DNA from: Nitrososphaerales archaeon
GTDB lineage: Archaea > Thermoproteota > Nitrososphaeria > Nitrososphaerales > UBA57
Assembly (NCBI GenBank): GCA_047517285.1
Contig: JAKZTE010000001.1
Coordinates: 27,498 to 91,497, forward strand
Length of the DNA: 64,000 nt
Direction: 5' to 3'
The notes under the pieces were generated by a model that was given only the letters and a program-made list of their open reading frames with translations, was not told the DNA's origin and ran no database searches. The position numbers were made by a program, and so were the translations under genes. This document shows, piece after piece, positions 36,250 through 64,000 of this stretch. How positions within the stretch are numbered: the stretch's first letter is position 1; each line of letters starts with the position of its first letter.

Positions 36250-37647
36250 TTAACCTATTGAACCTTCCATTTCTAAGGACATCAATTTGTTTAATTCTAC
36301 TGCATATTCCATTGGTAATTCTTTAAGAAATGGTTCAAAAAATCCTAATACTACGATTCTTGTCGCTTCATCTTCTGTCAATCCTCTGGACATTAAATAA
36401 AATAATTGATCCTCACCAATTTTTCCGACAGTTGCTTCATGCGTAAGTGTGGCATCTTCCTCAATAATCTCATTATATGGATAAGTATCAGAAATAGATT
36501 CATCATCTAATATTAAAGCATCACACCTGACAGTAGATTTCACATTTGTTGCTCCTTCTGCAATATGCAATAAACCTCTATAACTGGATCTTCCTCCATC
36601 CTTTGATATGGATTTTGCAATAATTTTTGACGATGTATTAGGTGCAAGGTGTACTACTTTTCCTCCAGAATCTTGATGTTGATTCTTTCCTGCATAAGCA
36701 CAAGATAATATCTCTGCTTTTGCACCATCTCCTAATAGATATACTGCAGGATATTTCATGGTTATTTTACTACCTATATTTCCATCTATCCATTCTACTG
36801 TTGCATTGTCATATGCATGTGCACGTTTTGTCACCAAATTGTATACGTCACTAGACCAATTTTGTATTGTTGTGTAACGAATCTTTGCACCTTTTTTCGC
36901 TATTAATTCTACTACTGCAGAATGTAAAGACTCAGACGAATAAACTGGAGCCGTACATCCCTCAATATAATGCACAGAACTTCCTTCATCAGCTATAATT
37001 AATGTTCTTTCAAATTGACCTATATTTTCCGCATTTATTCTAAAGTAGGCTTGTAATGGCATGTCCACATGTACACCTTTAGGAATATATACAAAAGAAC
37101 CTCCACTCCATACTGCACTGTTCAATGCTGCAAATTTATTATCTTCTGGAGGAATAATTTTACTAAAATATTCTTTCACAAGGTCTTCATGTTTCTCTAA
37201 ACCTTCATCCATTCCATAAAATATCACTCCTTGTTCTTCCAAATCTTTTCTTAGACTGTGATATACTACATCTGATTCATATTGAGCTCCTACTCCTGCT
37301 AAGAACTTTCTTTCCGCTTCTGGTATTCCTAACTTATCAAATGTATTTTTGATATCTTTTGGAACATCGTCCCAATCCTTTGCTTGTTTCTCAGTTGGCC
37401 TAGCGTAATAGTAAATATTATCGAAGTTAATCTGCGATAAATCTGCTCCCCATTTTGGCATCTCTTTTGAGTAAAATAATTTAAGTGATCTTAACCTGAA
37501 GTCAAGCATCCATTCCGGTTCATTTTTTGTTTCCGAAATCATTCTGACTACGTCTTCAGACAAACCTCTTTCGCCTTTATATACATAATTTTTAGTAGAA
37601 TCTTTAAAATCATACTTGTCATAATCAAATGAGACTTCTTCTGTCAT
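36250..37647 (-). CDS. sufB: Fe-S cluster assembly protein SufB
   Basis: Strong SufB pattern throughout ([37 protein letters not shown]). Confidence 0.93.
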
Positions 37648-38221: not shown

Positions 38222-40303
38222 ATGAGTCAAATAACTAAGTTAAACCTTGATGATTTTATTCAAGGTCAATTTAAGAATAACACTGAAATGGTAGTTCGTC
38301 TTAATGATGGATCTATTATATTTGTAGACGAACAAGCCCTTGACAAAAACAAAATGAGTGACGAGGGTTGCCCCGTTAAAACCTTTGGAGTTAGGTATCG
38401 CGTTATGAGTGATGATATGAAAACTGTTACTGCTAAATACCTTATTCCTAATGAAGTTCTAAGTCTTGCTAAAACAAGAGGAAAAGAATTTGCTGGTATA
38501 AAACTTCCTGTGGGTATTCTAACAAATGATCAAACTCCAAAGTTTGGCGTTTGGCTAAAAATTTATCCAAACTTCCAACAAATCGGAACAAACGATCGTG
38601 GTGAAATAGTATTACGTGATCGAAAAGATTTCCAACCCATGACTGGTGCAGTAATTAATTCAAATAACACCATTATAATGGGCCGAGCAGAACGTCTTGT
38701 TACACGTCTATCTAAAGAAGATAGTTCTCTAGATTGTACCGAAGCAGATGCTTGGTTGAAGGCATTTGAAATTCTTGACGATACAGCTACCCTAACTCGC
38801 GACTATCTATGCGCTGGTATTAAATACCGCCATGAAGGAAATGCACCTTATCTAAATATAACTACTGAAGTTAATTTCTTTGATATCCAAGACAAAGAAA
38901 TGCTTGATCTCAGGAGCACTATCCAATCTAGATTTGATAAAATCAATCGAACTATTCCTAATGTTAAGATTAGATCAGTTATCAATCTTCCAAAAACCGA
39001 AGAGGATTTCAAATCAATACTTTCTAAACTACAAGAAAAAGGCTCTTCCGCAAAAGAACTAGGTTTGCCTGAATCTTATTCTGATTCACGATTCTACGAT
39101 CCAAAGAATAATACAATTGCATCATCAAACTTTGTACTATTCGTACCATTGGCAGACTTACCTGACGAGATTACAATCACAACAATTAATACTGATTATC
39201 ATGGTGAAGTAAAGTCTCGTGGTGTATTATCCCCATTGATGGCAATATTATCTCTTGTAAACGTTATTTCTGCACATGCAGGATCAGGTGTTTTAAGCCA
39301 AAATGGAACTGCTACTACATTTACAGGTCCTACAGGCACTGGTAAAACCACTGCAACGTCATTCTTTGCTGAAAAGAATGAAAAGTTTCGAAGACAAGAA
39401 TTACGTCGCAGATACGAAATCATTCTTAAAAAACAACATTCTGACCTTTCTGATAGCGACTTCCAAGTAAAAGTTGACGAAGTAGTTGCAGGAGTTGGTA
39501 TCTTATGCCAAGAAGACTGGATTGAAATTGCAGAAGGAGATGATGGTAAATGGTCATTCTGGCCAACTGAAAAATCTATGTATGCACGAACTGGAGGTTT
39601 CCCAGGATTAGATTTCATTCTAATTGAAAATGAACCTATGCTCGAAAATGCATTAGCAGACTTCGGTGCATCCGGCTGTAAAAAATACCTTGGTAAAGTC
39701 ACACACGAATTCTTCCCTGAAAGAATTTTCTATGAACCAAGTTGGGGTCATTTACTGTATGATCGATCTTCAAGACCAATCTCTGCACATGTATTTCTTG
39801 AAAGAAATGCTGACTTAGATTTCTTTGCAAAACGAGTTAGTGCAAAAGAAGCTGTTGAATACTTACTTGTAGGAAGAACTCCATCAGGTAAATATGAACC
39901 TATGTACAATGCATATCCTGACTTCAGTGGTTTCCTTATGGAACATGGAATAATCGGCCCTAAACTTGTTGAAGCATACGCTAAAGCAAAAGCAGGAGAT
40001 TATTCTGTAATTGGCGCTGGTGATGCATCTACTGGCAAAGCAGTATTTGAAAAGCTAGATATTCAATTACGACTTTGGGAAAAGAGCTGTGAAGTCACGC
40101 CTCCATTCATCGTCAATGGAGCACCTGGACTCTTTATCACACAGGACGTTAATTGGTTGCTCTCCGAGATGCCAGATATATTCGACAATTGGAAACACGT
40201 TACCTTGGATGACTACAAAGCCTTCATGGAAAAGGAATTCGGCGTAACTTACGGTCCAAAAGGCGAATGGACTCATTTGAAAAAATTCAATATTGAATAT
40301 TAG
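38222..40303 (+). CDS. highly divergent ATP-type PEP carboxykinase-like P-loop protein (693 aa)
   Basis: NTDYHGEVKSRG...ISAHAGSG...TFTGPTGTGKTT parallels the ATP-PEPCK core GTDYAGEMKKG...SMHCSAN...FFGLSGTGKTT. Downstream, LCQEDW...DDGKWSFWPTEKSMYART parallels LIGDDEHGW...DDGVFNFEGGCYAKT. It has large extra segments. Confidence 0.5.
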   Translation: MSQITKLNLDDFIQGQFKNNTEMVVRLNDGSIIFVDEQALDKNKMSDEGCPVKTFGVRYRVMSDDMKTVTAKYLIPNEVLSLAKTRGKEFAGIKLPVGILTNDQTPKFGVWLKIYPNFQQIGTNDRGEIVLRDRKDFQPMTGAVINSNNTIIMGRAERLVTRLSKEDSSLDCTEADAWLKAFEILDDTATLTRDYLCAGIKYRHEGNAPYLNITTEVNFFDIQDKEMLDLRSTIQSRFDKINRTIPNVKIRSVINLPKTEEDFKSILSKLQEKGSSAKELGLPESYSDSRFYDPKNNTIASSNFVLFVPLADLPDEITITTINTDYHGEVKSRGVLSPLMAILSLVNVISAHAGSGVLSQNGTATTFTGPTGTGKTTATSFFAEKNEKFRRQELRRRYEIILKKQHSDLSDSDFQVKVDEVVAGVGILCQEDWIEIAEGDDGKWSFWPTEKSMYARTGGFPGLDFILIENEPMLENALADFGASGCKKYLGKVTHEFFPERIFYEPSWGHLLYDRSSRPISAHVFLERNADLDFFAKRVSAKEAVEYLLVGRTPSGKYEPMYNAYPDFSGFLMEHGIIGPKLVEAYAKAKAGDYSVIGAGDASTGKAVFEKLDIQLRLWEKSCEVTPPFIVNGAPGLFITQDVNWLLSEMPDIFDNWKHVTLDDYKAFMEKEFGVTYGPKGEWTHLKKFNIEY

Positions 40304-49991: not shown

Positions 49992-51092
49992 TTGGCAATG
50001 ATTGACAGAAGTATCCTACAAAAAACCGTAAAAAGCTACGATACTAATAATATATCTATTGCTGCCCTTGGTAGCCATTCTGCTCTCGACATCATGGATG
50101 GGGCTACTTCTGAAAATCTAAATACTATAGTAATTTGTCAAAAAGGCCGCGAGACAACATATAAACACTTTCATCGAATTATTAATGATGTCATAACTTT
50201 ACCTAAATTTTCCGATTTACTTACCGACGACGTACAAAAATCCTTAATCTCTAATAATTCTATTTTAATTCCTCATCGTTCATTCACTACATACATTGAT
50301 TATGATTCTATTGAAAATAACCTTCAAGTTCCTATCTTTGGTAATAGAGAAATGCTACGCACTGAAGAAAGAAATGTTGAAAAAAACCAATATTATCTTC
50401 TTGAAAAAGCTAACATTAAATATCCTAAATTATTTAACAAACCTGAAGATATTGATCGCCTTGTAATCGTAAAGGTAATGGAATCAACACGTAAAATTGA
50501 ACGTGCATTCTTTACAGCTTCTAGTTTTAAAGAATTCAATGAAAAAGCAGAAAAACGTATTGCTCAAGGTATAATAAATGCCGAGGATTTAGCTGATGCA
50601 CGTATAGAAGAGTTTGTTTTAGGCACTTATTTTAATTTTAATTTCTTTTATTCAATACTTCATGATCGTGTAGAATTTCTTGGCATAGATCGACGTCTAC
50701 AGACCAATCTTAATGACTTCACTTCATTACCTGCCAAACAACAACTGGAGATTGATGTCGAATTACAGAATATTGAAGTCGGACATATGCCTGCCACAAT
50801 TCGTGAATCATTTCTTGAAAAAGTTTTTGAAATGGGTAATAAATTTGTCGACTCTACTAAAAAAGAATTTGATCCAGGTATGATTGGACCATTTGCATTA
50901 CAAAGCGCAATTACAAAAGACTTTGAACTAGTTGTATTTGATGTTTCACCTCGTGTTCCTGGAAGTCCTGTTTTAATGATGAGCCCTTACACTCACTATT
51001 ATTATGGCGAATCATTTGGCGCTGGTAAAAGAATCGCAATGGAAATATCTGAAGCAATAAAAGAAGAACGATTAGATGAGGTGGTTACCTGA
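49992..51092 (+). CDS. purP: 5-formaminoimidazole-4-carboxamide ribonucleotide (FAICAR) synthetase PurP
   Basis: N-terminal IAALGSHSALDI and the ATP-grasp core, with DRRLQTN...E and a C-terminal region typical of archaeal PurP. Confidence 0.8.
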   Translation: MAMIDRSILQKTVKSYDTNNISIAALGSHSALDIMDGATSENLNTIVICQKGRETTYKHFHRIINDVITLPKFSDLLTDDVQKSLISNNSILIPHRSFTTYIDYDSIENNLQVPIFGNREMLRTEERNVEKNQYYLLEKANIKYPKLFNKPEDIDRLVIVKVMESTRKIERAFFTASSFKEFNEKAEKRIAQGIINAEDLADARIEEFVLGTYFNFNFFYSILHDRVEFLGIDRRLQTNLNDFTSLPAKQQLEIDVELQNIEVGHMPATIRESFLEKVFEMGNKFVDSTKKEFDPGMIGPFALQSAITKDFELVVFDVSPRVPGSPVLMMSPYTHYYYGESFGAGKRIAMEISEAIKEERLDEVVT

Positions 51093-51106: not shown

Positions 51107-52114
51107 TTGGGTTCTCATTGTGCTTTACAAGTCCTCAAAGGCGCTAAAGAAGAGGGTTTTAATACAGTCTTGGTTACTAAATCGTCTCGAGAAAAACTCT
51201 ATAGACGATATGATTTTATTGACGAATATATTGTCGTAGAAGATTTCCAAGAAATTACGAATGAGGATATCACAAATAAACTGACGGAACTGGATTCAAT
51301 TTTAATTCCTCATGGCACTTTAATTTCTGAAGTAGGAATTGAAAAAATCGAAAAACTTAATGTTCCAATCTTTGGAAACAGACATATCTTACGATGGGAA
51401 GCAGATCGAGATCTTAAAACTAAATTAATGGAAAAATCAGGTGTTTCTATTCCGAAAATATTCAATTCTCCAGAAGAAATTGATTGCCTAACAATTTCTA
51501 AATTGTCCGGAGCTCGTGGAGGCTCTGGTTATTTTCTTGCTAAAAATTCAGAAGATTATTATTCTAACGTGGATAAATTCAAAAAACAAGGTTTAATGAC
51601 TGATGCAGACGAACTCCAAATACAAGAGTACATTGTAGGCGTTCCAGTATATTTGCAATACTTTCAGTCTCCTCTCAAAAATGAATTGGAACTCTTTGGA
51701 ATAGATAAACGATATGAAACTAATGTCGATAGTTTAGGACGGATTCCAAGTACTGACCAAAATGAACTTAAAATATCTCCTACGTATATCGTAGTTGGTA
51801 ACCTGCCTCTAGTTCTCAGAGAATCTCTCCTTGTCGAAGTATATGATATTGGGGACAACTTTGTAACAGCAAGTAAAGAGTTAGTTCCACCAGGTATGCC
51901 TGGACCATTTTGTATGGAGGGCGTTTATGATTCAAATGGAAAATTCATTGCATTTGAATTTTCTGCTCGTATAGTTGCTGGTACTAATATATTTACTACA
52001 GGTTCACCATATTCTTACTTGACTCATGGCGCAAATATGAGTATGGGTAGAAGAATTGCTTTAGAAATCAAAACTGGCATCGACAATAACACATTAGATG
52101 ATTTACTTACATGA
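51107..52114 (+). CDS. PurP paralog (second FAICAR synthetase-like ATP-grasp protein)
   Basis: TLGSHCALQVLKGAKEEGFNTVLV and colinear similarity to the upstream PurP. The start is TTG at 51107; an in-frame stop at 51077 limits any 5' extension. Confidence 0.75.
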   Translation: MGSHCALQVLKGAKEEGFNTVLVTKSSREKLYRRYDFIDEYIVVEDFQEITNEDITNKLTELDSILIPHGTLISEVGIEKIEKLNVPIFGNRHILRWEADRDLKTKLMEKSGVSIPKIFNSPEEIDCLTISKLSGARGGSGYFLAKNSEDYYSNVDKFKKQGLMTDADELQIQEYIVGVPVYLQYFQSPLKNELELFGIDKRYETNVDSLGRIPSTDQNELKISPTYIVVGNLPLVLRESLLVEVYDIGDNFVTASKELVPPGMPGPFCMEGVYDSNGKFIAFEFSARIVAGTNIFTTGSPYSYLTHGANMSMGRRIALEIKTGIDNNTLDDLLT

Positions 52115-54511: not shown

Positions 54512-54886
54512 TTACTTGACTGAATCGAAAGATTCTAACTCAAATCCGTATAAATTGTCTAGCGCTACTGAATAATTCTCAGTTAGGTATTCTTTAGCTT
54601 TATCACTTAATGACGCTTTATTGACCATAACTTTAAAATTAAATTCTGGAGCGTCTCCCGATTTATTATGTTGTTCTTCTAAATTTTTTAACATTTTCTT
54701 CTCTCCAATTACTAGTGTTGCAATCCGTCTTCCATCAGGTAATTGTTCATAAAACTGTACATCTATCTTCTTCTCTTTTTTATTAACTTCTAGTAAATAC
54801 CCGGTAAGTTCTAGTGTATTGGATTTTTTCATTTTTACTGAAGAAATTTCTTCTGCTAACCATTTCGGAAATTCTTGTTTACCCAC
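54512..54886 (-). CDS. hypothetical protein (124 aa), last gene of the R15P-isomerase/prs/pgk operon
   Basis: Open frame 9 nt downstream of pgk on the same strand, with no motif I recognise. Confidence 0.4.
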   Translation of the reverse strand: MGKQEFPKWLAEEISSVKMKKSNTLELTGYLLEVNKKEKKIDVQFYEQLPDGRRIATLVIGEKKMLKNLEEQHNKSGDAPEFNFKVMVNKASLSDKAKEYLTENYSVALDNLYGFELESFDSVK

Positions 54887-54895
54887 TTATCATCA

Positions 54896-56095
54896 TCACT
54901 TTGTATGTATGTTCGCAGAATTATTTAAAGCATTTAACAATGGTAATTCTTCACCAGTGAGATACCTAATTAATGCACCTCCTGCTGTACTGACATGATA
55001 AATCTTGTCCTTCAAATCTAATTGTGAAAGTACTGCACTTAGATGACCTCCACTGGTTATCGTTCTCGCATTTGTATTTGATAATTTAGTAAGAATTTCC
55101 GTAGTTCCAAGCCTAAATTCAGAATTCTCAAACATCCCTAATGGCCCTGTTATGAAAATATTTTCCGCATTATCAATCTGTTGAGAATATTTATTGATAG
55201 TTTTTTGCCCAATATCAAAAATCCGATCTGATAAATCTAGTTCTGATAAAGATTTTTCTATTCTCTTTCCATCAACTTCTACTGCAACGTCATCTGCTAA
55301 CATGAATTTTTCTGGATATTTCTCTAATAATAATTTTGCAGTATTGATTGATTCTTCATCATCTATTGACGTCACTTCCAGAGGAACTTTTTTAGTTGCT
55401 GCCAAAAAAACATTTCCAATTAAACCACCTAATAACACTTTTTCTATTCTGCCTGCTTCAATTAATTTTTGAATTGATTTTAACCTATCGGGAATTTTTG
55501 CACCACCTAAGATTGCAGTAAATTTTGTATTAGAATCTTCAACTATTCCTTTTAACGCATTGACTTCCCGTTCAACAATCTTACCTGCACACGTCGGTAT
55601 TAGTTCTGCAAATCCTACTATGGATGGGTGTGATCTATGCGATGTTGAAAATGCATCTAATACACAATAATCTATATGTTCTGCTAATTTACTAACAAGA
55701 TGCGATTTAACCGCATCTTTAGGTAACATTTCTGCATTTTCTTCTGCTGTAAATCTTAGATTGTCTAATAATAATATATCTCCTGTCTTGAGATTCTTTA
55801 TTGTATTTATTGCAGTAGGTCCAAAAACATCTGGAACAAAATTTATTTTTCTATTTAATAACTTTGAAAGTGCAGGGGCATGCTGTTCCATTGAAACATA
55901 GTCTGATTTTCCTAGTCGACCCTGGTGAGACGCGACAATTAATTTCGAATCTTTTAGTGCATCAATAGTTTCTGCAACTTCTAATAATCGTGAATCATCT
56001 AGTATCTTTAACGAGTCTGGATCAATAGGACTATTTATATCACATCGTAAGAAAACTGTCTTTCCCTTGATGTCTAAGTCTTGTATTGATAGCAT
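54896..56095 (-). CDS. pgk: phosphoglycerate kinase
   Basis: V.LR.D.N.P, ASHQGR and the C-terminal SGGH/STAGGA motifs. Length is 399 aa. Confidence 0.93.
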   Translation of the reverse strand: MLSIQDLDIKGKTVFLRCDINSPIDPDSLKILDDSRLLEVAETIDALKDSKLIVASHQGRLGKSDYVSMEQHAPALSKLLNRKINFVPDVFGPTAINTIKNLKTGDILLLDNLRFTAEENAEMLPKDAVKSHLVSKLAEHIDYCVLDAFSTSHRSHPSIVGFAELIPTCAGKIVEREVNALKGIVEDSNTKFTAILGGAKIPDRLKSIQKLIEAGRIEKVLLGGLIGNVFLAATKKVPLEVTSIDDEESINTAKLLLEKYPEKFMLADDVAVEVDGKRIEKSLSELDLSDRIFDIGQKTINKYSQQIDNAENIFITGPLGMFENSEFRLGTTEILTKLSNTNARTITSGGHLSAVLSQLDLKDKIYHVSTAGGALIRYLTGEELPLLNALNNSANIHTK

Positions 56096-56123: not shown

Positions 56124-57041
56124 TTATTCGAGTGTATCTTTTATTGTTCTGGCAATTACGTCAGATACACTGACATAACTAACTGGACTTGGAACTGTAT
56201 CTGTTCCCACCACTATTGAAACACCAGAATTGTATATGTTTGCTAGGGCCGAGTCAAATGGCGTTTTTCCACGAAGTACAGGATGCGTACATCCAACGAC
56301 AATTTTACCTGCGCCTGCTTCTTGAATTAATTTTACTGCTTCAATAATTGTACCGCCAGAACTAATGATGTCGTCAATGATGACAACATCTTTTCCCTTT
56401 ACGGGAAGAAGTTTACCCTCCCTTGTAGTAATGCTGACTTCTGTAGCACTGTATCTTGTTTTAAACATAATCTCATAATCAACTCCCATTGTCTCTGCAG
56501 CTACTTTTGCCCATTGTTCTGATTCTTCATCAGGTCCTATGACTAATGTATTCTGTAATCCTGCATTCTCTTTAATCCATTTTGCAATATCTGGAACTGC
56601 ACTGAGATTCTTTGTAGGAGTATTCTTGATTAAATCACTCAAATCATTAACTCTCTGAAGATGCAAGTCAATTGTATAGATCATATCTATTCCTAAATTA
56701 TCTATTATTTTAGAAACTAAATGGAAACTTCCAGGTTCGCCTGGATTGAATCTAGAATCTTGTCGAGCATATGCGAAGTATGGCACAAATGTAGTAATTG
56801 ATTTTGCCTTTCCATCCTTCAATGCAGAACAAATTAAAAGATATTCAATAAATAATTCATCTGGTTTCAAACCCATTGGATGAATTAATACAACATCTTC
56901 ATTCTCAATTTCATCATGATAGCGAACATATTTTTCACCATCTGGAAACTTTGTTATTTCAATCTGACCTAGTTTCGCATCAAGTAATTTAGCTACTTTT
57001 GTTGCCAAAACTTGGCCTTCTGATCCACCGTATATTATCAT
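56124..57041 (-). CDS. prs: ribose-phosphate pyrophosphokinase (PRPP synthetase)
   Basis: FPDGE, YARQD, DLH and the PRPP-binding loop VVIIDDIISSGGT. Confidence 0.9.
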   Translation of the reverse strand: MIIYGGSEGQVLATKVAKLLDAKLGQIEITKFPDGEKYVRYHDEIENEDVVLIHPMGLKPDELFIEYLLICSALKDGKAKSITTFVPYFAYARQDSRFNPGEPGSFHLVSKIIDNLGIDMIYTIDLHLQRVNDLSDLIKNTPTKNLSAVPDIAKWIKENAGLQNTLVIGPDEESEQWAKVAAETMGVDYEIMFKTRYSATEVSITTREGKLLPVKGKDVVIIDDIISSGGTIIEAVKLIQEAGAGKIVVGCTHPVLRGKTPFDSALANIYNSGVSIVVGTDTVPSPVSYVSVSDVIARTIKDTLE

Positions 57042-57054
57042 TTCATATTACCTT

Positions 57055-58029
57055 TTACATCAGTTCTATTAAATCTTTTATTACTAAAGATGCAGCTGAA
57101 GGCGGTATTATACCTTTCTCAGTAACAATAATGTCAATATTCTCTGGCGGCGTTACATCAAATACAGGATTTCTAATTTTTATATTCGGATATGCTTTTA
57201 GATATTCTTCTGAACAAACTTCTGTAGCATCTCTTTCTTCAATTTCTGTAAGTTCTCCATACATTGTATCTGCATAAAATTTGTATGTCTCTGCTGCAGC
57301 CATTAATTTAACACGTGATTCATGAGCTATTGCAGCTAATTGAGACGTACCTATTTTATTAACTAAAGCTCCATTAACTGCTACTGCATCTGCTCCACAT
57401 ACTGCACGATCAACTTTATCCATAAATCTTCTTACTGCAGAATCTATTATTATCGTGACGTCACAACCATGTTTGGACAATGTTGCTGCAGTCTTATGAC
57501 CCTGAAACAATGGCCTAGTTTCACAACAAATTATCTTTATTCCTTTACCCATGTCATGGGCTTTTTTTAATATGCTTATTGCAGCCTCACTATTACATAT
57601 TGTAATTACTGTATCACCATTTCTAACTCGCTTTCCACCATATTCGCCAATTTTATTATAGGCGTCTAAACTGTTATGCACGAATTGTTCTGCCGCCTTA
57701 ATAGTAACTTCTTTTATGTTATCTGAAGATTCCCCTGCGTTGTAAGATTTTCTAGTCGATGCTAAAACAATATTTACTCCGTTTGGAAGTGAAACTGCAG
57801 TTGGTCTGGCAGATCGTAATTTTTTCCCTTCTTTCATTATATTGTTATAGAACTGTTCACGATCTGAACTGTTCGTATTCTCTACATAATTCTTTAAAGC
57901 ACTTGCCGCTAATCTTGCAATTCGTCCTGCCCCGTGAATACGCATATCTTTAATTTGGCTGTACGCTGTATCTACATCAATATCTACGACCCCCGAAACT
58001 GTGGGAATATTAATTGGATCTTCTACCAT
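57055..58029 (-). CDS. eIF-2B alpha/beta/delta-like family protein, probable ribose-1,5-bisphosphate isomerase
   Basis: RIHGAGRIA, TICNSEA (conserved Cys) and CGADAVAVNGALVNKIGT are family motifs. The assignment to R15P isomerase rather than MtnA or aIF-2B rests on the linkage to RuBisCO. Confidence 0.65.
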   Translation of the reverse strand: MVEDPINIPTVSGVVDIDVDTAYSQIKDMRIHGAGRIARLAASALKNYVENTNSSDREQFYNNIMKEGKKLRSARPTAVSLPNGVNIVLASTRKSYNAGESSDNIKEVTIKAAEQFVHNSLDAYNKIGEYGGKRVRNGDTVITICNSEAAISILKKAHDMGKGIKIICCETRPLFQGHKTAATLSKHGCDVTIIIDSAVRRFMDKVDRAVCGADAVAVNGALVNKIGTSQLAAIAHESRVKLMAAAETYKFYADTMYGELTEIEERDATEVCSEEYLKAYPNIKIRNPVFDVTPPENIDIIVTEKGIIPPSAASLVIKDLIELM

Positions 58030-58142
58030 ATCAATAAAAAATATTACTAATACCTTACTTAAGTGTTGAGAAATATTTTTTAATTACGAAATTGGGAATT
58101 TAAAATTTTTTATAGTTGAATAAAAGAATTAATATAATACTC

Positions 58143-58793
58143 ATGAAAATTGCACCATCGATGTTAGCATCAAAACCTGAAAATTATGTCCAAGACGTAC
58201 AAATTCTAGAAAAGGCCAATGTTGAGTGGTTTCATATAGATGTGTTAGACGGAACTTTTACTGATACATATGCCTTTCCTGTAGAACATCTTGAAATTAT
58301 TAATAATGCAACAGACTTTCCCATGGATATTCATTTAATGACAAACCATGCAATTGAGTCTCTTCCTAAATATATTGAAGCTGGCGGTGATATGCTTACG
58401 GCCCATGTAGAAGCAGTAAACCCAAGAAAGTATATCGACGCTGTTAAAAAACATGATAAAATGGTCGGCCTTGCAATTAATCCTGACACCCCTCTTTCTT
58501 CTATCATAGACTACATCGATGAATTAGATAGAATATTGGTTATGACTGTAGTTCCTGGTAAAACAGGTCAATCATTTATAGAATATCCCTTATCAAAGGT
58601 CAGAGAAGCTCGCGCACTTATTGACAAACATCAATATAATGTAGAATTATGTGTAGATGGAGGAATCAATGAAAAAACAGCACCACTTGCTTTTGAAGCA
58701 GGTGTTGACGTAGTTGTTTGTGGAGCTGGAATTCTCTATAAAGATGATATGATTCAAGCAGTTGAAGATTTACGTGCACTTGCATCTAAATAA
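58143..58793 (+). CDS. rpe: ribulose-phosphate 3-epimerase
   Basis: MKIAPSMLA, H.DV.DG.F, H.M, V.PG..GQ.F and DGG. The ATG at 58143 fits the family N-terminus better than the track TTG at 58116. Confidence 0.9.
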   Translation: MKIAPSMLASKPENYVQDVQILEKANVEWFHIDVLDGTFTDTYAFPVEHLEIINNATDFPMDIHLMTNHAIESLPKYIEAGGDMLTAHVEAVNPRKYIDAVKKHDKMVGLAINPDTPLSSIIDYIDELDRILVMTVVPGKTGQSFIEYPLSKVREARALIDKHQYNVELCVDGGINEKTAPLAFEAGVDVVVCGAGILYKDDMIQAVEDLRALASK

Positions 58794-58803
58794 AAAATAT
58801 ATT

Positions 58804-60816
58804 TTATTTCTTCAATAATTCAAGACTTTTATTTACAACATTATCTACAGTAAAACCAAATTTCTTCATAACTTCATTTCCAGGGGCCGACGTACCAAAA
58901 GTTGTCATCCCAATTGCCTTTCCTTCTAAACCAATATATTTTTCCCAACCAAATGTACTTGCCGCTTCAACTGAAACTCGTTTTTTGATTGCAATTGGTA
59001 ATACTTGTTCTTTATAATCGTCTGATTGTTTTTCAAATAATTCCCAACTTGGTATACTTACTACCCTGACATTTACTCCCTTGTTTTTCAATTCTTTCTG
59101 AGCTTCAACAGCCAAGTGTAATTCAGAACCAGTTGCAATTATAATTAATTCCGGCAATCCATCTGAATCAACAAGTGTATATCCACCTTTTTGTAAATTT
59201 TCAGGTGAAGAAACCTCATTTTTATTTGACTCTCCATATAAAACAGGTAATGCTTGTCTTGTAAGGATTAAAGCAGTAGGACCACTTGTTATTTGCAATG
59301 CAGTTTTCCACGCTATCACTGTTTCATTTGCATCTCCTGGTCTTATTACAGTAAGATTGGGTACTGCCCGTAAATTCGATACTTGTTCTATGGGTTGATG
59401 TGTAGGTCCATCTTCACCTACTCCTATACTATCGTGTGTATAGACAAAAACAATCCGTAAGCCCATTAATGATGCTAAACGTATCGATCCTCTCATATAA
59501 TCCGAGAAAATCAGGAATGTACTTCCAAAAGGAATTACTCCGCCGTATGCTGCCATTCCATGTAGAATTGCACCCATTGCATGTTCCCTTATACCAAAGT
59601 GAATATTTCGTCCATGAGGAGCTTCTGGCAACGAATCAACCGAAGTTTTAATTCGTACATTTGTAGAATCCATTAAATCTGCAGATCCACCAATTATTGC
59701 AGGAATATTCTCAGCTAATATATTTAGTGTTTTTCCTGATGCCTGTCTTGTTGCAAGAGATTCATCTAAATTGAATATTGGTGTGTTTTTATCCCAATTT
59801 TCTGGCAGCTTTCCTCTAATCAAATTCTCAAATTCTTCTGCTAATTCTTTATTGCCATTCTTATATGATTCATAAATCTCATTCCATCTTCTTTCATAGT
59901 CATTTCCATTCGTTACAACTTTCTGAAATTCTTGTTTTACTTCATCAGGAATGTGAAATGTAGGTTCAAGAGGCCAATCTAGATTTTCTTTAGTCAATTT
60001 AGTTTCATCCGGTCCTAAAGGCGCTCCGTGTGCAGCTTCACTGTCTTGTTTATTAGGACTACCAAAACCAATATGCGTTCGTGCTATGATTAGAGATGGT
60101 TTCTCTTCTTGCCCTTGGCTATTTTTTATTGCTTCACTAAAATCTTGTAAATCATTTCCTTCAATATTCTGAACAAACCACCCATGAGCTTCAAATCTCT
60201 TTTTTATATCTTCTTTTGTGGTTAGTTCTGTATTTCCATCAATGCTGATATGATTATCTAAGTAGACGTATATTAAATTGTTAAACTTTTGATGACCTGC
60301 AACCGCAGCCGCCTCTGAAGAAATTCCTTCCATTAAATCTCCATCACTACAAAATGCGTATATTTTATGGTCGATAATTTTATGATTCTTTGTATTGAAT
60401 CTATTAGCTAAATATCTCTGCGCAAACGCCATTCCAATACCTGCACTGAATCCTTGTCCTAATGGTCCAGTTGTTGTTTCTACACCTGGCGTTTCTCCAT
60501 ATTCAGGATGACCCGGCGCTTTACTTCCAATCTGCCTAAAATTTTTAATCTCGTCTAAAGCAAGATCATATCCACACAGATGCAGTAAAGAATATAGTAT
60601 CATTGAACCATGTCCCGACGATAAAATAAACCGATCTCGGTTAGCCCATTTTGGATTGCTAGGATTATGCTTTAGTATCTGTGTAAACAATTTGTAGCCC
60701 ATTGCTGCTGCCTCCATGGGTTGACCAGGATGGCCTGATTTTGCTGCTTCTACAGCATCCACCGACAAAAATCTAATCGTATTAATACATAATTCTTCAA
60801 TCTTCTCGTTTGTCAT
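58804..60816 (-). CDS. tkt: transketolase (single full-length polypeptide)
   Basis: SGHPG, the GHGS.L.Y..LHL region, the GDG.L.EG TPP motif (SDGDLMEG) and THDSIGVGEDGPTHQP. Confidence 0.95.
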   Translation of the reverse strand: MTNEKIEELCINTIRFLSVDAVEAAKSGHPGQPMEAAAMGYKLFTQILKHNPSNPKWANRDRFILSSGHGSMILYSLLHLCGYDLALDEIKNFRQIGSKAPGHPEYGETPGVETTTGPLGQGFSAGIGMAFAQRYLANRFNTKNHKIIDHKIYAFCSDGDLMEGISSEAAAVAGHQKFNNLIYVYLDNHISIDGNTELTTKEDIKKRFEAHGWFVQNIEGNDLQDFSEAIKNSQGQEEKPSLIIARTHIGFGSPNKQDSEAAHGAPLGPDETKLTKENLDWPLEPTFHIPDEVKQEFQKVVTNGNDYERRWNEIYESYKNGNKELAEEFENLIRGKLPENWDKNTPIFNLDESLATRQASGKTLNILAENIPAIIGGSADLMDSTNVRIKTSVDSLPEAPHGRNIHFGIREHAMGAILHGMAAYGGVIPFGSTFLIFSDYMRGSIRLASLMGLRIVFVYTHDSIGVGEDGPTHQPIEQVSNLRAVPNLTVIRPGDANETVIAWKTALQITSGPTALILTRQALPVLYGESNKNEVSSPENLQKGGYTLVDSDGLPELIIIATGSELHLAVEAQKELKNKGVNVRVVSIPSWELFEKQSDDYKEQVLPIAIKKRVSVEAASTFGWEKYIGLEGKAIGMTTFGTSAPGNEVMKKFGFTVDNVVNKSLELLKK

Positions 60817-60913: not shown

Positions 60914-61606
60914 ATGAAATTCTTCTTAGATACAGCAAATATTGATCAAATAAAAGAAGCAAAAGATATGGGAATGTTGGACGGCGTTACAACTAACCCT
61001 ACTCTAGTTGCAAAAGAAAATAAAGAAACCCATGAATTATATTCAGAAATCGTAGAAATCTGTAACGGTAAACCCGTTAGTTTAGAAACTACCACGAACG
61101 ATACCGCAAAGATTGTCAAAGAAGGTCAAGACCTAGTTAACACATACGGTAAAAACAGTAGTAAAATCTATGTTAAAGTTGCAAATACAAAGGCCGGACT
61201 AAAAGCAGTCCGACAATTGTTTGACTCTGGAATTGATTGCAATGTCACTCTCACTTTCTCTGCCGCTCAATATCTATTGGCTGCAAAAGCAGGTGCAAGA
61301 GTTGTTAGTCCATTTATAGGAAGACTAGATGATATTGGCCTTGATGGTAATTTACATCTTATAGAGGAAATTGAACAAATTCGAAATAATTATAAAGATA
61401 ACGAGGAACACATTCCAAATAAAGCAGACACATTAGTTTCTAGTATTCGACATCCTGTTCATGTAGTGCAAGCTGCCATGATGGGGGCTCCTCTAGCTAC
61501 AATGCCATTCAAAGTACTAGATATGATGTTTAAACATCCATTAACCAAGATCGGATTTGATCAATTCATGTCAGACTTAGGCTCTGACGAAACATTACAA
61601 CAATAG
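60914..61606 (+). CDS. transaldolase / fructose-6-phosphate aldolase (short TalC/FSA type)
   Basis: MKFFLDTANIDQIKEA...GVTTNPTL, the Schiff-base Lys region VKV, and SPF.GR.DD. Confidence 0.88.
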   Translation: MKFFLDTANIDQIKEAKDMGMLDGVTTNPTLVAKENKETHELYSEIVEICNGKPVSLETTTNDTAKIVKEGQDLVNTYGKNSSKIYVKVANTKAGLKAVRQLFDSGIDCNVTLTFSAAQYLLAAKAGARVVSPFIGRLDDIGLDGNLHLIEEIEQIRNNYKDNEEHIPNKADTLVSSIRHPVHVVQAAMMGAPLATMPFKVLDMMFKHPLTKIGFDQFMSDLGSDETLQQ

Positions 61607-61609: not shown

Positions 61610-62569
61610 ATGTCGAAAATGAAAGTTCTTATAACCGGTACAGGAGGGATGGGAGCGCACATCTCAAAAGTTCTGATTGATAAAAATGTCGATACATCAT
61701 TATATGGAACATGTCGTCAAACTGAAGCTATTTCTAAAATTGTGGATATTGATAGAGTCGAGATGCACAAAGGCGATATTTTAGATTCTGCAAAACTCGA
61801 ATCTGTTATCAAAGATAACGATATTGACCATATCATTCATACTGCTGGACCTCGTGCCACTCAATGTAGAAATCATGATTATACAAATGACTCTGAAACA
61901 GGAATTCGCGTTCATACTATGGGTACCTCTAATGTTCTAGAAGCTGCACGTAAACTTGGCGTTAAAAGAGTTATTTACACTAGTACTGGTTCCGTATATC
62001 TTGCAAACAAAGTTCATCCTCCTGACGGAACATTCATTAAAGAAACAGATGCTGTAGTACCTTTTGATAGCAGTGACATTTATGCCTCTGGTAAAGTTGC
62101 TTGTGAGTATCAAGGATTTAATTATGCAAAAGCTTATGGAATAGAATTTGCTTCTATCCGAATGGCACATGTTTATGGACCTTGGCCTGGAGAAATGGGA
62201 AGAGGTAGATCAGTTGGCGAAATGGTAGATGCTTTTCTTAATGACCAAGAAATCACTGTTGAAGAACAAGTTGCACAATGGACTTACCTTTATGATTTAG
62301 CAGAAGAGCATTATGCAGCTTTAACTTCTCCAAATCTCAAACATGAAATATTTAATGCAGGTTCCGGAACAGTATCCGGATTATCTGATGTAAAAGATAT
62401 TTTAGGTAAAAAAGGAGATGTATCAAAAATTCATGTTGATGACTCTAAACCTGGTTCAAAGAAATTCCCATTCGACATGAGTGCAGCAGAAGACAAATTA
62501 AATTTCAAAAATAAATATGATTTGGAAGCCGGCGTCGAAAACCTTATTAGTTGGTATTCGAAAAAATAA
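61610..62569 (+). CDS. NAD-dependent epimerase/dehydratase (extended SDR)
   Basis: TGTGGMGAHI (TGxxGxxG) and the catalytic YASGK (YxxxK). The start lies 3 nt after the transaldolase stop. Confidence 0.75.
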   Translation: MSKMKVLITGTGGMGAHISKVLIDKNVDTSLYGTCRQTEAISKIVDIDRVEMHKGDILDSAKLESVIKDNDIDHIIHTAGPRATQCRNHDYTNDSETGIRVHTMGTSNVLEAARKLGVKRVIYTSTGSVYLANKVHPPDGTFIKETDAVVPFDSSDIYASGKVACEYQGFNYAKAYGIEFASIRMAHVYGPWPGEMGRGRSVGEMVDAFLNDQEITVEEQVAQWTYLYDLAEEHYAALTSPNLKHEIFNAGSGTVSGLSDVKDILGKKGDVSKIHVDDSKPGSKKFPFDMSAAEDKLNFKNKYDLEAGVENLISWYSKK

Positions 62570-62585: not shown

Positions 62586-62612
62586 ATAGGAATTCCTATA
62601 AACCTATAAATA
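62586..62612 (+). promoter_or_regulatory. 14-bp perfect palindrome ATAGGAATTCCTAT followed by a TATA-like box (CTATAAATA) about 30 nt upstream of the RuBisCO ATG
   Basis: Read directly: palindrome at 62586..62599, TATA-like CTATAAATA at 62604..62612, ATG at 62641. The spacing fits an archaeal promoter with a very short leader. Confidence 0.4.
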
Positions 62613-62640
62613 TCCCAAAGCACAATTTTTTTTGATTAAG

Positions 62641-64000
62641 ATGCCAGAAATTAAAAGACAATGGAATACACCAACTGTTGAACACAGTGAAAGTAGTGTA
62701 TTTCAAACAACCCCTGATCAAATAGATCCAGACAAGTACGTTATCGCAACATATTTCATCACATGTGATCCTAGAATGACTATCGATCACGCCGGTGTAA
62801 TTATTGCTGCTGAACAATCAGTAGGTACTTTTACTGACGTTTCTACTGCAACTGATTTAGCACACAAAACTGCTGCTAAAGTATTCTCCTGGGAGTATGA
62901 AGATCCAAGTGGATCTATTAAACATTCAGGTTACGTAAAAGTTGCATATCCGCTTTATCTTCTAGATATAGATAATCGTGGTATTCCTGACCTATTTACA
63001 TTTATTACAGGAAATTGGATGGGATTCACTCCAATTCCTAATTGTAAATGGGTTGACCTAGAATTACCTAAGAGTATTCTCAAACTCTTCAAAGGCCCTC
63101 AATTTGGTGTTGAAGGTATGAGAAAAATCTGTGGTACAACAGAGACAAGAAGACCTCATCTTGGTGCTACATTGAAACCTAAAATGGGTGTTACAGACCA
63201 AGGCGCAGCTGATCAATTCTATGATGCAGCTTGTGGTGATTTTGACACTTACAAAGATGATGAGACTTATCATAATCAATGGTGTTCTCCTTTAATGGAT
63301 CGAATTACTAAGGTTTATGAAGCACTTGATAAAGCTAAATCTGAAGGACATCATCCTGAAGGTGAGATGTTCTATGTTCCACAAGTCACTACTGACTTGG
63401 AAACTACCTTGGAAACTGCAGATCGAATGATTGCACATGGTGCTCGAGGAATGATGTTAAACTTTATGTGTACATGGTATCCTGCACTTCGTGCTCTTGC
63501 AGAAGATGCTAGTATCAATGTTCCAATTCACTTACATCGTGCATCACATGCAGCACTTACACGTCATCCAAGACATGGGATTAATCTTCCAGTCACTGAC
63601 TATATTGCAAGAATTGCAGGTGGTGATATGGTTCATGTTGGAACTGCACGAGGTAAACTCGGCGATGCGAATAAATTCACTGAAATTCCTCAGATTATGA
63701 ATAAGATCCAGGATCCATTAGAACACATTAAACCAATGATGGGAATCTGTTCAGGTGGATTGACACCTCAAAACTACCATTTCTCAATTGATTTAATGGG
63801 TAATGATATCCAACTTCAGAATGGAGGAGGAATTCATGGCCATCCTTGGGGAACCAAAGGAGGCGCAATTGGTGCACGACAAGCTGTTGATGCTTACATG
63901 CAATCAATTCCAGTCGAAGAATATGCTAAGACACACGAAGAACTTGCAGGTACTATTCAAGCATTTGGTAACAAATACGCCGTTGCATCTGAAGAATCTG
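62641..64000 (+). CDS. rbcL: ribulose-1,5-bisphosphate carboxylase/oxygenase large subunit (form III-like); 3' end outside the window
   Basis: Translated by hand (453 codons, no stop; absent from the ORF track). AEQSVGTF, ITGNWMGF, GATLKPKMG, CGDFDTYKDDE (carbamylated Lys plus Asp/Glu), IHLHRASHAA, VHVGTARGKLGD, GICSGGL and NGGGIHGHPWG cover all the RuBisCO active-site positions I can recall. Confidence 0.85.
   Translation, partial: MPEIKRQWNTPTVEHSESSVFQTTPDQIDPDKYVIATYFITCDPRMTIDHAGVIIAAEQSVGTFTDVSTATDLAHKTAAKVFSWEYEDPSGSIKHSGYVKVAYPLYLLDIDNRGIPDLFTFITGNWMGFTPIPNCKWVDLELPKSILKLFKGPQFGVEGMRKICGTTETRRPHLGATLKPKMGVTDQGAADQFYDAACGDFDTYKDDETYHNQWCSPLMDRITKVYEALDKAKSEGHHPEGEMFYVPQVTTDLETTLETADRMIAHGARGMMLNFMCTWYPALRALAEDASINVPIHLHRASHAALTRHPRHGINLPVTDYIARIAGGDMVHVGTARGKLGDANKFTEIPQIMNKIQDPLEHIKPMMGICSGGLTPQNYHFSIDLMGNDIQLQNGGGIHGHPWGTKGGAIGARQAVDAYMQSIPVEEYAKTHEELAGTIQAFGNKYAVASEES

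What the first reader, a model, noticed from the sequence alone, without database searches (positions are those of the whole stretch)
62641..64000. RuBisCO large subunit missed by the ORF track: catalytic residues intact, several atypical motif variants, at least 453 aa
The ORF track lists only three short spurious ORFs in this region. Frame +1 from the ATG at 62641 is nevertheless open to the window end.

All the positions I know to be required for carboxylation are present:
- Glu in AEQS and Thr in GTF
- Asn in GNW
- the two Lys of LKPKMG
- KDDE
- HRASH
- H in VHVGT and K in GKL
- SGG and GGG

The region around the carbamylated Lys reads CGDFDTYKDDETY instead of the usual GGLDFTKDDEN. The N-terminus carries about 20 extra residues. 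At 453 aa the protein has still not terminated, which is longer than the 420-445 aa I recall for typical form III enzymes. It may therefore represent a divergent form III (or II/III-like) lineage.
Basis: seen in the sequence. Interest (0 to 1): 0.7.

Follow-up and report, generated by a model that had tools for sequence, protein, structure and literature searches.

The report
Known deep-sea archaeal RuBisCO gene

Summary
Frame +1 from ATG 62641 is open to the window end (453 codons). It has both RuBisCO large-subunit Pfam domains and every catalytic residue. The ORF tool skipped it only because it does not list ORFs that run off the end.

The gene is not new. It is 99% identical to the gene of MAG ASW8_bin1 (Reji & Francis) and 92-97% identical to ASW2_bin45, HMT 'ATL' (Aylward & Santoro), UBA223, SAT139 and others. 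In those genomes the ORF ends 10 codons past the window (463 aa). dN/dS against these orthologues is 0.05-0.2 in seven of eight comparisons.

[quoted passage not shown] That work reports an Asp-for-Gly and a Tyr-for-Phe change that I infer lie in CGDFDTYKDDE. It also notes the missing AMP phosphorylase and phosphoribulokinase, a PRPP-to-ribose-1,5-bisphosphate route, and co-location of pathway genes.

My additions are modest:
- Gly-to-Asp is limited to one marine subclade.
- Trp66-to-Phe and GNW are clade-wide.
- Soil relatives exist at 74-80% identity and a sister group at 53%. The link rbcL / ribose-1,5-bisphosphate isomerase / PRPP synthase holds in the clade loci long enough to show it and in one sister locus.
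- A TATA-like box is conserved upstream of the ATG.

Verdict: already known, low interest.

The parts
62641..64000 (+). rbcL, RuBisCO large subunit. This is the 5' 453 codons of a 463-codon gene; the last 10 codons and the stop lie beyond the window.
   Evidence: The frame is open. Pfam finds both RuBisCO domains, and the PDB and NCBIfam matches agree. Orthologues L001 and L003-L009 end ...ASEES|VVPELGEGE[K/Q]*, or ...GEGSN* in L009. The AF2 model has pLDDT 89.5, and its best PDB matches are type III RuBisCOs with TM 0.84-0.93.
62605..62612 (+). TATAAATA, a TATA-box-like element 29-36 nt upstream of the ATG. I infer it is the rbcL promoter and gives a leaderless or near-leaderless mRNA.
   Evidence: An (A/T)ATAAATA-like element sits at a similar distance upstream of the ATG in marine, intermediate and soil clade members, while the surrounding sequence diverges. 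Its function as a promoter is inferred, not shown.
61610..62569 (+). NAD-dependent epimerase/dehydratase (SDR) gene directly upstream of rbcL. Its role is unknown.
   Evidence: Pfam Epimerase, 125 bits. No NCBIfam equivalog is reached. It is kept in this position in marine and 78-80% clade loci.
60914..61606 (+). Transaldolase / fructose-6-phosphate aldolase family gene.
   Evidence: Pfam TAL_FSA, 169 bits. TIGR00875 scores 224.5 bits, just under its cut-off of 246.
58804..60816 (-). Transketolase, the fused bacterial-type form of 670 aa.
   Evidence: TIGR00232 scores 884 bits against a cut-off of 682. Pfam finds Transketolase_N, Transket_pyr and the C-terminal domain.
58116..58793 (+). Ribulose-phosphate 3-epimerase.
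   Evidence: Pfam Ribul_P_3_epim, 179 bits. NF004076 scores 199 bits against a cut-off of 165.
57055..58029 (-). Ribose-1,5-bisphosphate isomerase (e2b2 family). It makes RuBP, the RuBisCO substrate.
   Evidence: TIGR00511 ribulose_e2b2 scores 370.6 bits against a cut-off of 314. It is linked to rbcL in every clade locus that extends far enough (L004-L006, L008-L010, L012, L014-L018, L024-L026) and in sister locus L022.
56124..57041 (-). Ribose-phosphate diphosphokinase (PRPP synthase), 13 bp downstream of the isomerase gene on the same strand.
   Evidence: TIGR01251 scores 264 bits against a cut-off of 113. NF002095 scores 288 bits against a cut-off of 296. The Prs-R15Pi pair stays next to rbcL in soil relatives and in the 53% sister locus L022.
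54896..56095 (-). Phosphoglycerate kinase. It takes the RuBisCO product 3-phosphoglycerate toward gluconeogenesis.
   Evidence: Pfam PGK, 359 bits. It is syntenic in L004-L006 and L008-L010.

Best explanation
This is the rbcL gene of a heterotrophic marine thaumarchaeon (HMT, the pSL12-like lineage, Nitrososphaerota). [quoted passage not shown]

**The enzyme.** It is most likely an active, small-subunit-free carboxylase that converts ribulose-1,5-bisphosphate plus CO2 into two 3-phosphoglycerate.

**The proposed pathway.** The surrounding genes suggest that RuBP is made without phosphoribulokinase and without AMP phosphorylase:
1. Ribose-5-phosphate comes from the non-oxidative pentose-phosphate enzymes encoded alongside (transketolase, transaldolase, Rpe).
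2. PRPP synthase converts it to PRPP.
3. PRPP loses a phosphate to give ribose-1,5-bisphosphate. The enzyme is not identified; the literature proposes a Nudix hydrolase or spontaneous loss.
4. The adjacent ribose-1,5-bisphosphate isomerase makes RuBP.
5. RuBisCO fixes CO2.
6. The adjacent phosphoglycerate kinase starts the return path through gluconeogenesis.

**Shown here:** gene identity, an intact active site, purifying selection, the gene neighbourhood and its conservation.

**Inferred, not shown:** carboxylase activity, the PRPP-to-R15P step, and operation as a cycle. The literature supplies the high in situ expression.
For: **Identity**
- 99% aa identity to ASW8_bin1. 97% to a 150-kb Nitrosopumilales MAG contig. 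96% to ASW2_bin45 and an ALOHA MAG. 95% to HMT 'ATL', 94% to UBA223 and 92% to SAT139.

**Family and fold**
- Both Pfam RuBisCO domains are present.
- The best PDB sequence hits are type III enzymes, E 3e-63.
- The AF2 model has pLDDT 89.5, with best fold matches 2cwx, 2d69 and 3a12, TM 0.84-0.93.

**Active site**
- All catalytic and RuBP-binding positions are conserved across the clade.

**Function retained**
- dN/dS is 0.05-0.20 against seven orthologues. It is 0.34 against the N-containing L008.
- The length is 463 aa in all marine orthologues read.

**Pathway context in the window**
- R15P isomerase is above its equivalog cut-off. PRPP synthase, PGK, Rpe, Tkt and Tal all lie within 8 kb.
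- The same order is found in L004-L006, L008-L010 and L012. L012 lacks a PGK match.
- rbcL with R15Pi and Prs also occurs in soil relatives and as an rbcL-R15Pi-Prs same-strand run in sister locus L022 (53% identity).
- No AMP phosphorylase, phosphoribulokinase, Nudix or PfkB gene is among the window ORFs scanned.

**Literature**
- The same gene, the 17 of 19 conserved residues, the missing AMPase and PRK, the PRPP route and the co-location of pathway genes are all published.
- It is classed as form III-A of HMT in a 2025 survey.
- rbcL is among the most expressed HMT genes.
Against: - No enzyme assay exists for this clade in the literature I could search.
- The protein is very divergent. It scores 279 bits against the form III equivalog model (cut-off 497), which is no better than a Chloroflexota RuBisCO-like protein scores against that model (272 bits).
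- Gly-to-Asp five residues before the carbamylated Lys, and Trp66-to-Phe, change positions that are otherwise highly conserved.
- The step that makes ribose-1,5-bisphosphate is not encoded in the window.
- PRPP synthase is a housekeeping enzyme (the window also holds a His operon that uses PRPP), so its adjacency could be incidental.
- Only 64 kb of the genome was seen. Absence of AMPase and PRK genome-wide rests on the cited papers.
Confidence: 0.85

Rival explanations
1. It is an undescribed, novel RuBisCO lineage (new form III or II/III-like).
For: Scores against curated form III and II/III models are low (279 and 180 bits, against cut-offs of 497 and 489). Identity drops sharply from 74% to 54% to 45% outside the clade.
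Against: It is 92-99% identical to genes of published MAGs: ASW8_bin1, ASW2_bin45, HMT 'ATL', UBA223 and SAT139. The enzyme, its divergence and its two variant residues were reported in 2019-2020 and reused in 2025-2026 studies.
Confidence: 0.02
2. It is a RuBisCO-like protein (form IV type) that does not carboxylate RuBP and instead acts as an enolase, isomerase or decarboxylase on another sugar phosphate.
For: Its overall profile scores are no higher than those of a true RuBisCO-like protein (L020 scores 272 bits against TIGR03326). It gives a secondary hit to the DK-MTP-1-P enolase model, 183 bits. Gly-to-Asp and Trp-to-Phe fall at conserved positions.
Against: - All carboxylation residues are kept, including K179, K181, K205, D207, E208, H299, R300, H303, H332, K339 and the SGG and GGG motifs. 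The RLP L020 has lost several of them: KPCAG, no HR..H, no H327.
- The enolase model score is far below its cut-off of 409 and below the RuBisCO scores.
- The gene is linked to the RuBP-forming isomerase across the clade, wherever the locus is long enough to show it.
Confidence: 0.05
3. It works in the classical archaeal AMP-salvage (pentose bisphosphate) pathway, as in Thermococcus kodakarensis. There AMP phosphorylase or a ribose-1-phosphate kinase supplies ribose-1,5-bisphosphate from nucleotides or nucleosides, and there is no PRPP route or cycle.
For: - R15P isomerase lies in the same cluster, about 4.6 kb upstream of rbcL.
- The best structural relatives are AMP-pathway enzymes.
- Soil relatives carry a PfkB-family kinase divergently adjacent to rbcL.
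Against: - No AMPase or PfkB gene is in the window.
- Both genome papers report no AMPase in HMT MAGs.
- The PfkB kinase is absent from the marine clusters. Elsewhere in Nitrososphaerota it heads the pentose-phosphate operon without rbcL, so it is not RuBisCO-specific.
Confidence: 0.12
4. It is a pseudogene or an assembly artefact truncated near the window end.
For: The stop codon is not visible in the window.
Against: Eight independent marine assemblies carry the same 463-aa ORF ending 10 codons later. dN/dS is well below 1. Expression is reported in metatranscriptomes.
Confidence: 0.01

Closest known systems
RuBisCO of heterotrophic marine Thaumarchaeota / pSL12-like lineage (Reji & Francis, bioRxiv 10.1101/2019.12.22.886556 and ISME J 2020; Aylward & Santoro 2020, PMC7300363)
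   Same: It is the same gene.
- 99% identity to ASW8_bin1, 96% to ASW2_bin45 and 95% to HMT 'ATL'.
- The two published variant residues (Asp for Gly, Tyr for Phe) appear to be those of this motif.
- The neighbours match, and the published pathway proposal covers them.
   Different: Nothing of substance differs. This copy has 6 aa differences from ASW8_bin1 over 453 residues.
Form III-b RuBisCO of Thermococcus kodakarensis / Pyrococcus horikoshii (AMP salvage pathway; PDB 1geh, 3a12, 2cwx)
   Same: The fold matches (TM 0.84-0.93) and the active-site residues are the same. No small-subunit gene is encoded next to it. It is partnered with ribose-1,5-bisphosphate isomerase.
   Different: - Only 30-32% identity.
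- 463 aa against 430-444 aa, the excess coming from short insertions and a C-terminal tail carrying a VPELG motif.
- No AMP phosphorylase is nearby.
- The host is an aerobic, cold-water mesophile.
Form III-a RuBisCO of methanogens (reductive hexulose-phosphate pathway with phosphoribulokinase)
   Same: The literature places the HMT enzyme with form III-a, on a long branch.
   Different: - Identity to methanogen III-a is reported as only 30-35%, and no phosphoribulokinase is found in the MAGs.
- No PRK is in the window.
- The closest non-clade relatives I found are Thermoproteota (TACK) sequences at 43-54% identity.
- I could not test the III-a placement, because no named III-a reference was available to me.
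Form IV RuBisCO-like proteins (for example the Chloroflexota locus L020)
   Same: They share the superfamily and fold, and have comparable profile scores against the form III model.
   Different: RuBisCO-like proteins lack several catalytic residues that this protein keeps.

Membership tests
RuBisCO large-subunit superfamily | N-terminal alpha/beta domain plus C-terminal TIM-barrel catalytic domain | tested here: met
   PF02788 scores 61 bits and PF00016 scores 170 bits, both above their cut-offs. The AF2 model has TM 0.84-0.93 to solved RuBisCOs.
Bona fide (carboxylating) RuBisCO, as opposed to form IV RLP | Full set of catalytic and RuBP-binding residues. In spinach numbering: E60, T65, N123, T173, K175, K177, K201, D203, E204, H294, R295, H298, H327, K334, L335, S379, G380, G381, G403, G404. 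| tested here: met
   All are present. In window numbering: E58, T63, N125, T177, K179, K181, K205, D207, E208, H299, R300, H303, H332, K339, L340, S371-G373, G395-G396. The mapping to spinach numbers rests on my knowledge of the motifs. W66 is Phe (F64) throughout the clade.
Bona fide (carboxylating) RuBisCO, as opposed to form IV RLP | Measured RuBP carboxylase activity | not testable with these tools
   No assay of this clade was found in the searchable literature.
Form III RuBisCO | Archaeal-type enzyme with no small subunit, closest to type III enzymes by sequence and structure | tested here: met
   - The top PDB hits by sequence and fold are type III.
- The gene downstream of rbcL in orthologous loci has no RbcS domain; it gives only a weak PaREP1 hit.
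- No RbcS domain was found among the window ORFs scanned.
- The host genes are archaeal: eRF1, tRNA intron endonuclease, RFC, Kae1.
Form III RuBisCO | Score above the curated cut-off of the NCBIfam equivalog model TIGR03326 (rubisco_III) | tested here: not met
   It scores 279 bits against a cut-off of 497. Sister group P0012/P0014 scores 379 and TACK relatives score 434-461. This measures divergence; it is not a biochemical criterion.
Form III-a (methanogen-type) RuBisCO | Groups phylogenetically with the methanogen III-a enzymes | not tested
   No named III-a reference sequence could be obtained with the tools. The placement rests on the published trees. My NJ tree shows only that the clade plus P0012-14 is monophyletic (bootstrap 99-100) among Thermoproteota sequences.
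Form III-a (methanogen-type) RuBisCO | Co-occurrence with phosphoribulokinase (RHP pathway) | tested here: not met
   No PRK domain is present in the window ORFs scanned or in the precomputed Pfam tables of related loci. It is reported absent from the MAGs. Only 64 kb of this genome was examined.
Archaeal AMP / pentose-bisphosphate pathway module | Ribose-1,5-bisphosphate isomerase partner | tested here: met
   Window 57055-58029(-) scores 370.6 bits against TIGR00511, above the cut-off of 314.
Archaeal AMP / pentose-bisphosphate pathway module | AMP phosphorylase or ribose-1-phosphate kinase supplying ribose-1,5-bisphosphate | tested here: inconclusive
   Neither is in the 64-kb window. Both papers report AMPase absent from HMT MAGs. 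The rest of this genome was not available.
HMT / pSL12-like RuBisCO clade | Near-identity to the published MAG genes, with shared motif and synteny | tested here: met
   - 92-99% identity to the genes of ASW8_bin1, ASW2_bin45, 'ATL', UBA223 and SAT139.
- CGDFDTYKDDE is shared.
- The order HMGR-orf124-PGK-Prs-R15Pi-Rpe-Tkt-Tal-Epim-RbcL is shared.
- The marine clade has bootstrap 100.

The most novel reading that the evidence does not exclude
The HMT enzyme, its soil and peat relatives (74-80% identity) and the 53% sister group may together form a Thermoproteota-specific RuBisCO sublineage distinct from methanogen form III-a.

Its hallmark would be an ancestral genetic link between rbcL, ribose-1,5-bisphosphate isomerase and PRPP synthase. 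That link would mark a CO2-incorporating pentose cycle that needs neither PRK nor AMPase.

On this reading, the Gly-to-Asp change next to the carbamylated lysine, found only in one marine subclade, would be an adaptation of activation or catalysis to cold, oxic deep water.

The pathway idea itself is published. Only the depth of the gene linkage, the non-marine relatives and the subclade restriction of the Asp would be new.
Probability: 0.3. Interest if true: 0.4.

Novelty: already known. Interest (0 to 1): 0.15.

Why it matters
How an aerobic heterotrophic archaeon of the dark ocean uses a highly expressed RuBisCO without phosphoribulokinase or AMP phosphorylase is still an open biochemical question. 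It bears on dark-ocean CO2 incorporation. That question was raised with this very gene in 2019-2020. The window adds no new gene, motif or pathway component. Its use is confirmatory: it gives a clean 64-kb context showing the RuBisCO embedded in a cluster of pentose-phosphate, PRPP and R15P-isomerase genes.

Tried and rejected
- **Pseudogene or truncation.** Rejected from orthologous loci and dN/dS.
- **RuBisCO-like protein.** Rejected from the residue table compared with a true RLP, L020.
- **PfkB kinase as the missing R15P source.** Soil relatives carry an RfaE-domain-I-like PfkB kinase next to rbcL. I spent a database search and a context look-up on it.
  - The kinase is widespread in Nitrososphaerota.
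  - In another genome it heads the transketolase/Rpe/transaldolase operon with no rbcL nearby.
  - It is absent from the marine loci I fetched.
  - It is therefore not a RuBisCO-specific partner. The top-120 hit list was saturated at 59% identity or more, so whether marine HMT have a distant copy elsewhere stays unknown.
- **Published classification of the exact sequence.** I looked for it in the supplement of the 2025 rubisco survey, but the sequence table is not held.
- **How the CGDFDTY strand packs.** The structure model confirms the fold but does not answer this, because coordinates are not returned.
- **ISME J version of Reji & Francis.** It is not held, so the preprint was used.
Full report
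**1. The observation**

Translating window 62641-64000 in frame +1 gives 453 codons without a stop, starting MPEIKRQW.... The ORF tool lists only three short ORFs there: 62596-62817(-), 63064-63279(-) and 63491-63700(+). By its own description it omits ORFs that run off an end of the source. The 'missed gene' is therefore an edge effect.

Family assignment:
- Pfam assigns RuBisCO_large_N (residues 31-145, 61 bits) and RuBisCO_large (169-441, 170 bits, E 9e-50).
- The best solved relatives are archaeal type III enzymes: P. horikoshii 2cwx at E 3e-63, then 8dht, Hyperthermus 6hun and T. kodakarensis 1geh/3a12.
- An AlphaFold2 model built on a 59-sequence alignment has mean pLDDT 89.5 and pTM 0.89. 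Its best PDB matches are the same type III structures, TM 0.84-0.93.

Most are invariant in that alignment: E58, T63, K179, K205 (the carbamylated Lys), D207, E208, H299, R300, H303, H332, K339, S371-G373 and G395-G396. N125 and K181 are at least 90% conserved.

The segment before the carbamylated Lys reads A-A-C-G-D-F-D-T-Y-K-D-D-E-T. There is no length change relative to the usual GGxDFxKDDE. D200 replaces a Gly that is at least 90% conserved.

Two details are overstated:
- The N-terminus is only 7-13 residues longer than in three type III structures (2cwx, 8dht, 1geh). It is 6 residues shorter than in Hyperthermus 6hun, and no longer than in M. burtonii or form I enzymes.
- The protein is not open-ended (section 2).

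**2. Completing the gene and identifying the organism**

The closest database proteins are 96% and 95% identical (463 and 456 aa). The next is an NCBI 'Nitrososphaerales archaeon' protein at 80%.

A contig carrying the 96% protein aligns base for base with the window. It shows the reading frame continuing for 10 codons (VVPELGEGEK) to a stop.

A scan of one genome per GTDB species returned 18 loci. The best matches were:

| Locus source | aa identity |
|---|---|
| 'Thaumarchaeota archaeon ASW8_bin1' | 99% |
| Nitrosopumilales MAG, 150-kb contig | 97% |
| ASW2_bin45 | 96% |
| ALOHA MAG | 96% |
| isolate 'ATL' | 95% |
| UBA223 | 94% |
| SAT139 | 92% |

In every marine locus read, the ORF is 463 aa. 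dN/dS between the window and these orthologues is 0.05-0.20. It is 0.34 against L008, which contains Ns. The pseudogene worry is therefore excluded.

The rest of the window is ordinary archaeal chromosome at 32-37% GC. It encodes eRF1, tRNA intron endonuclease, RFC, Kae1/Bud32, ribosomal protein S15, a His operon, SufBD, PEP synthase, TIM and tRNA-Gly.

**3. It is already described**

ASW8 and ASW2 are the two MAGs of Reji & Francis. 'ATL' corresponds to one of the HMT MAGs of Aylward & Santoro. Those papers describe a pSL12-like lineage, the heterotrophic marine Thaumarchaeota (HMT). It lacks ammonia oxidation and the 3HP/4HB cycle and 'unexpectedly' encodes a form III RuBisCO.

They report the following:
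- It groups with methanogen form III-a on a long branch, at 30-35% identity.
- 17 of 19 functional residues are conserved. The exceptions are an Asp for Gly and a Tyr for Phe or another hydrophobic residue, at alignment positions 223 and 226. I infer these lie in the GDFDTYK segment.
- AMP phosphorylase and phosphoribulokinase are absent; R15P isomerase is present.
- They propose the route R5P to PRPP to R15P (Nudix hydrolase or abiotic) to RuBP to 3-PGA, closed through gluconeogenesis and the non-oxidative pentose-phosphate pathway.
- Several of these genes are co-located on the contigs.
- The gene is highly expressed.

A 2025 survey lists these as form III-A rubiscos of HMT. A 2026 study of 104 genomes again finds rbcL among the most expressed genes. 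I found no biochemical characterisation.

That criterion is met.

**4. What the surroundings show**

Upstream of rbcL, going from far to near, the window encodes:

| Coordinates | Strand | Gene | Score |
|---|---|---|---|
| 54896-56095 | - | PGK | |
| 56124-57041 | - | PRPP synthase | |
| 57055-58029 | - | ribose-1,5-bisphosphate isomerase | TIGR00511, 371 bits, above cut-off |
| 58116-58793 | + | Rpe | |
| 58804-60816 | - | fused bacterial-type transketolase | TIGR00232, 884 bits |
| 60914-61606 | + | transaldolase/FSA | |
| 61610-62569 | + | SDR epimerase/dehydratase | |

Conservation of this arrangement:
- The same order is found in L004-L006, L008-L010 and L012. L012 lacks a PGK match.
- A less marine group at 78-80% identity largely keeps it.
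- Soil and peat relatives at 74-75% keep Prs-R15Pi within 2 kb of rbcL, next to a split-transketolase/Rpe/Tal operon.
- A sister group exists at 53% identity. One of its two loci has rbcL-R15Pi-Prs as a same-strand run. The other shows no such neighbours downstream.

No AMP phosphorylase, phosphoribulokinase, Nudix or PfkB gene occurs among the window ORFs scanned.

A TATAAATA element lies 29-36 nt upstream of the ATG (62605-62612). A similar element sits at a similar distance in marine, intermediate and soil members, while the flanking sequence diverges. I infer from this that rbcL has its own promoter, a near-leaderless transcript, and that the ATG at 62641 is the true start.

**5. Position among relatives**

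An NJ tree of 58 sequences (424 columns, 100 bootstraps) gave these supports:

| Group | Bootstrap |
|---|---|
| marine clade | 100 |
| marine + intermediate + soil | 100 |
| that clade plus the 53% group | 99 |
| subclade carrying Asp200 | 97 |

Distribution of the variant residues:
- Asp200 occurs only in the window and L001, L003-L008.
- L009 and L010 read CGGFDTYK.
- The 74-80% relatives read GG[G/A/V]DTFK.
- Phe for Trp66 (GTF) and GNW are clade-wide. Outgroups keep GTW.

Scores against the form III equivalog model fall stepwise (cut-off 497):

| Group | Bits |
|---|---|
| Thermoproteota relatives | 434-461 |
| sister group | 379 |
| this clade | 270-282 |
| a Chloroflexota RuBisCO-like protein | 272 |

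That RuBisCO-like protein has lost the catalytic residues. So the clade is a fast-evolving offshoot that kept its active site. I could not test the form III-a assignment, because no named III-a reference was available. That label rests on the cited trees.

**6. Mechanism, with what is shown and what is inferred**

Shown:
- Gene identity and an intact active site.
- Purifying selection.
- Type III fold.
- Conserved linkage to R15P isomerase, PRPP synthase, PGK and the non-oxidative pentose-phosphate genes.

From the literature:
- High expression.
- Absence of AMPase and PRK in the MAGs.

Inferred:
- The enzyme carboxylates RuBP made by the adjacent isomerase from ribose-1,5-bisphosphate.
- That intermediate derives from PRPP.
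- 3-PGA returns to pentose phosphates, giving net CO2 incorporation at the cost of ATP-to-AMP per turn.

The PRPP-to-R15P step has no candidate in the window. It is the weakest link.

**7. A side lead that did not hold**

In the soil relatives, a PfkB kinase closest to heptose-7-phosphate 1-kinase lies divergently next to rbcL (TIGR02198, 230 bits, below cut-off). It looked like a possible R15P-forming kinase.

Its homologues are very common in Nitrososphaerota. In another genome the kinase heads the same pentose-phosphate operon with no rbcL nearby. It is also missing from the marine loci I fetched. It is not a RuBisCO-specific partner.

**8. Verdict**

However, the gene, its motif variants, its context and its proposed role are all published.

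My additions are incremental:
- the subclade restriction of the Gly-to-Asp change;
- the non-marine relatives;
- the depth of the rbcL / R15Pi / Prs linkage;
- the conserved TATA element.

Novelty: already known. Interest: low.

Noticed in passing
L001:1657-2184 (+), also L003:4699-5226 and L004:11395-11922; just beyond the window end: A 175-aa ORF starts 3 nt after the rbcL stop in marine HMT loci. It gives only a weak PaREP1 Pfam hit (E 5e-4) and no NCBIfam hit. A homologue (36-43% identity) stays within about 0.3-6 kb of rbcL in all intermediate and soil clade loci, despite inversions and rearrangements. It could be a RuBisCO-associated factor or simply a passenger gene.
   Followed up: partly
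L024:7280-8314 (-); L014-L018 equivalents; L027:7001-8035: Soil and peat relatives have an RfaE-domain-I-like PfkB kinase divergently adjacent to rbcL. It heads a PfkB-TktN-Rpe-TktC-Tal operon. The same kinase/pentose-phosphate operon occurs without rbcL in another Nitrososphaerota genome, and the kinase is missing from the marine loci fetched. Its substrate is unknown.
   Followed up: yes
window 58804-60816 (-) versus L024:4761-7276 and L002:225-2023: Marine HMT carry a fused, bacterial-type transketolase (670 aa; TIGR00232, 884 bits). Soil and some intermediate relatives carry the split archaeal TktN/TktC pair in the equivalent cluster. This suggests the gene was replaced, possibly by horizontal transfer.
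   Followed up: no
window 61610-62569 (+): An SDR-type NAD-dependent epimerase/dehydratase sits directly upstream of rbcL in marine and 78-80% clade loci. It reaches no specific NCBIfam equivalog. Its role in a pentose/RuBisCO cluster is unexplained.
   Followed up: partly
window 34599-36230 (-): A 543-aa protein combines a SufB/SufD core with a C-terminal Rieske [2Fe-2S] domain. It lies next to a normal SufB/D paralogue (36250-37647). This is an unusual fusion for an Fe-S assembly scaffold.
   Followed up: no
window 38222-40303 (+): A 693-aa ORF has no NCBIfam hit. Its only Pfam hit is weak and local: PEPCK_ATP / P-loop, 28 bits, residues 294-379. Function is unknown.
   Followed up: no
window 49992-51092 (+) and 51107-52114 (+): Two tandem paralogues carry DUF1246 + DUF1297. 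From my own knowledge this is the PurP-type ATP-grasp, the archaeal FAICAR synthetase family.
   Followed up: no
window 19448-19954 (+): A gamma-class carbonic-anhydrase-like hexapeptide protein (NF050158, 179 bits, cut-off 250). It is probably the cytoplasmic gamma-CA that Reji & Francis linked to CO2 supply for RuBisCO.
   Followed up: partly
window 54512-54886 (-): A 124-aa ORF lies between the HMG-CoA reductase and PGK genes. It has no family hit but is conserved (44-90% identity) at the same position in all marine loci that reach it, and in L012.
   Followed up: partly
window 1-64000: GC skew is negative in every 4-kb bin (down to -0.26) and the cumulative skew falls monotonically. The window therefore shows no skew turning point that would mark a replication origin or terminus.
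   Followed up: no
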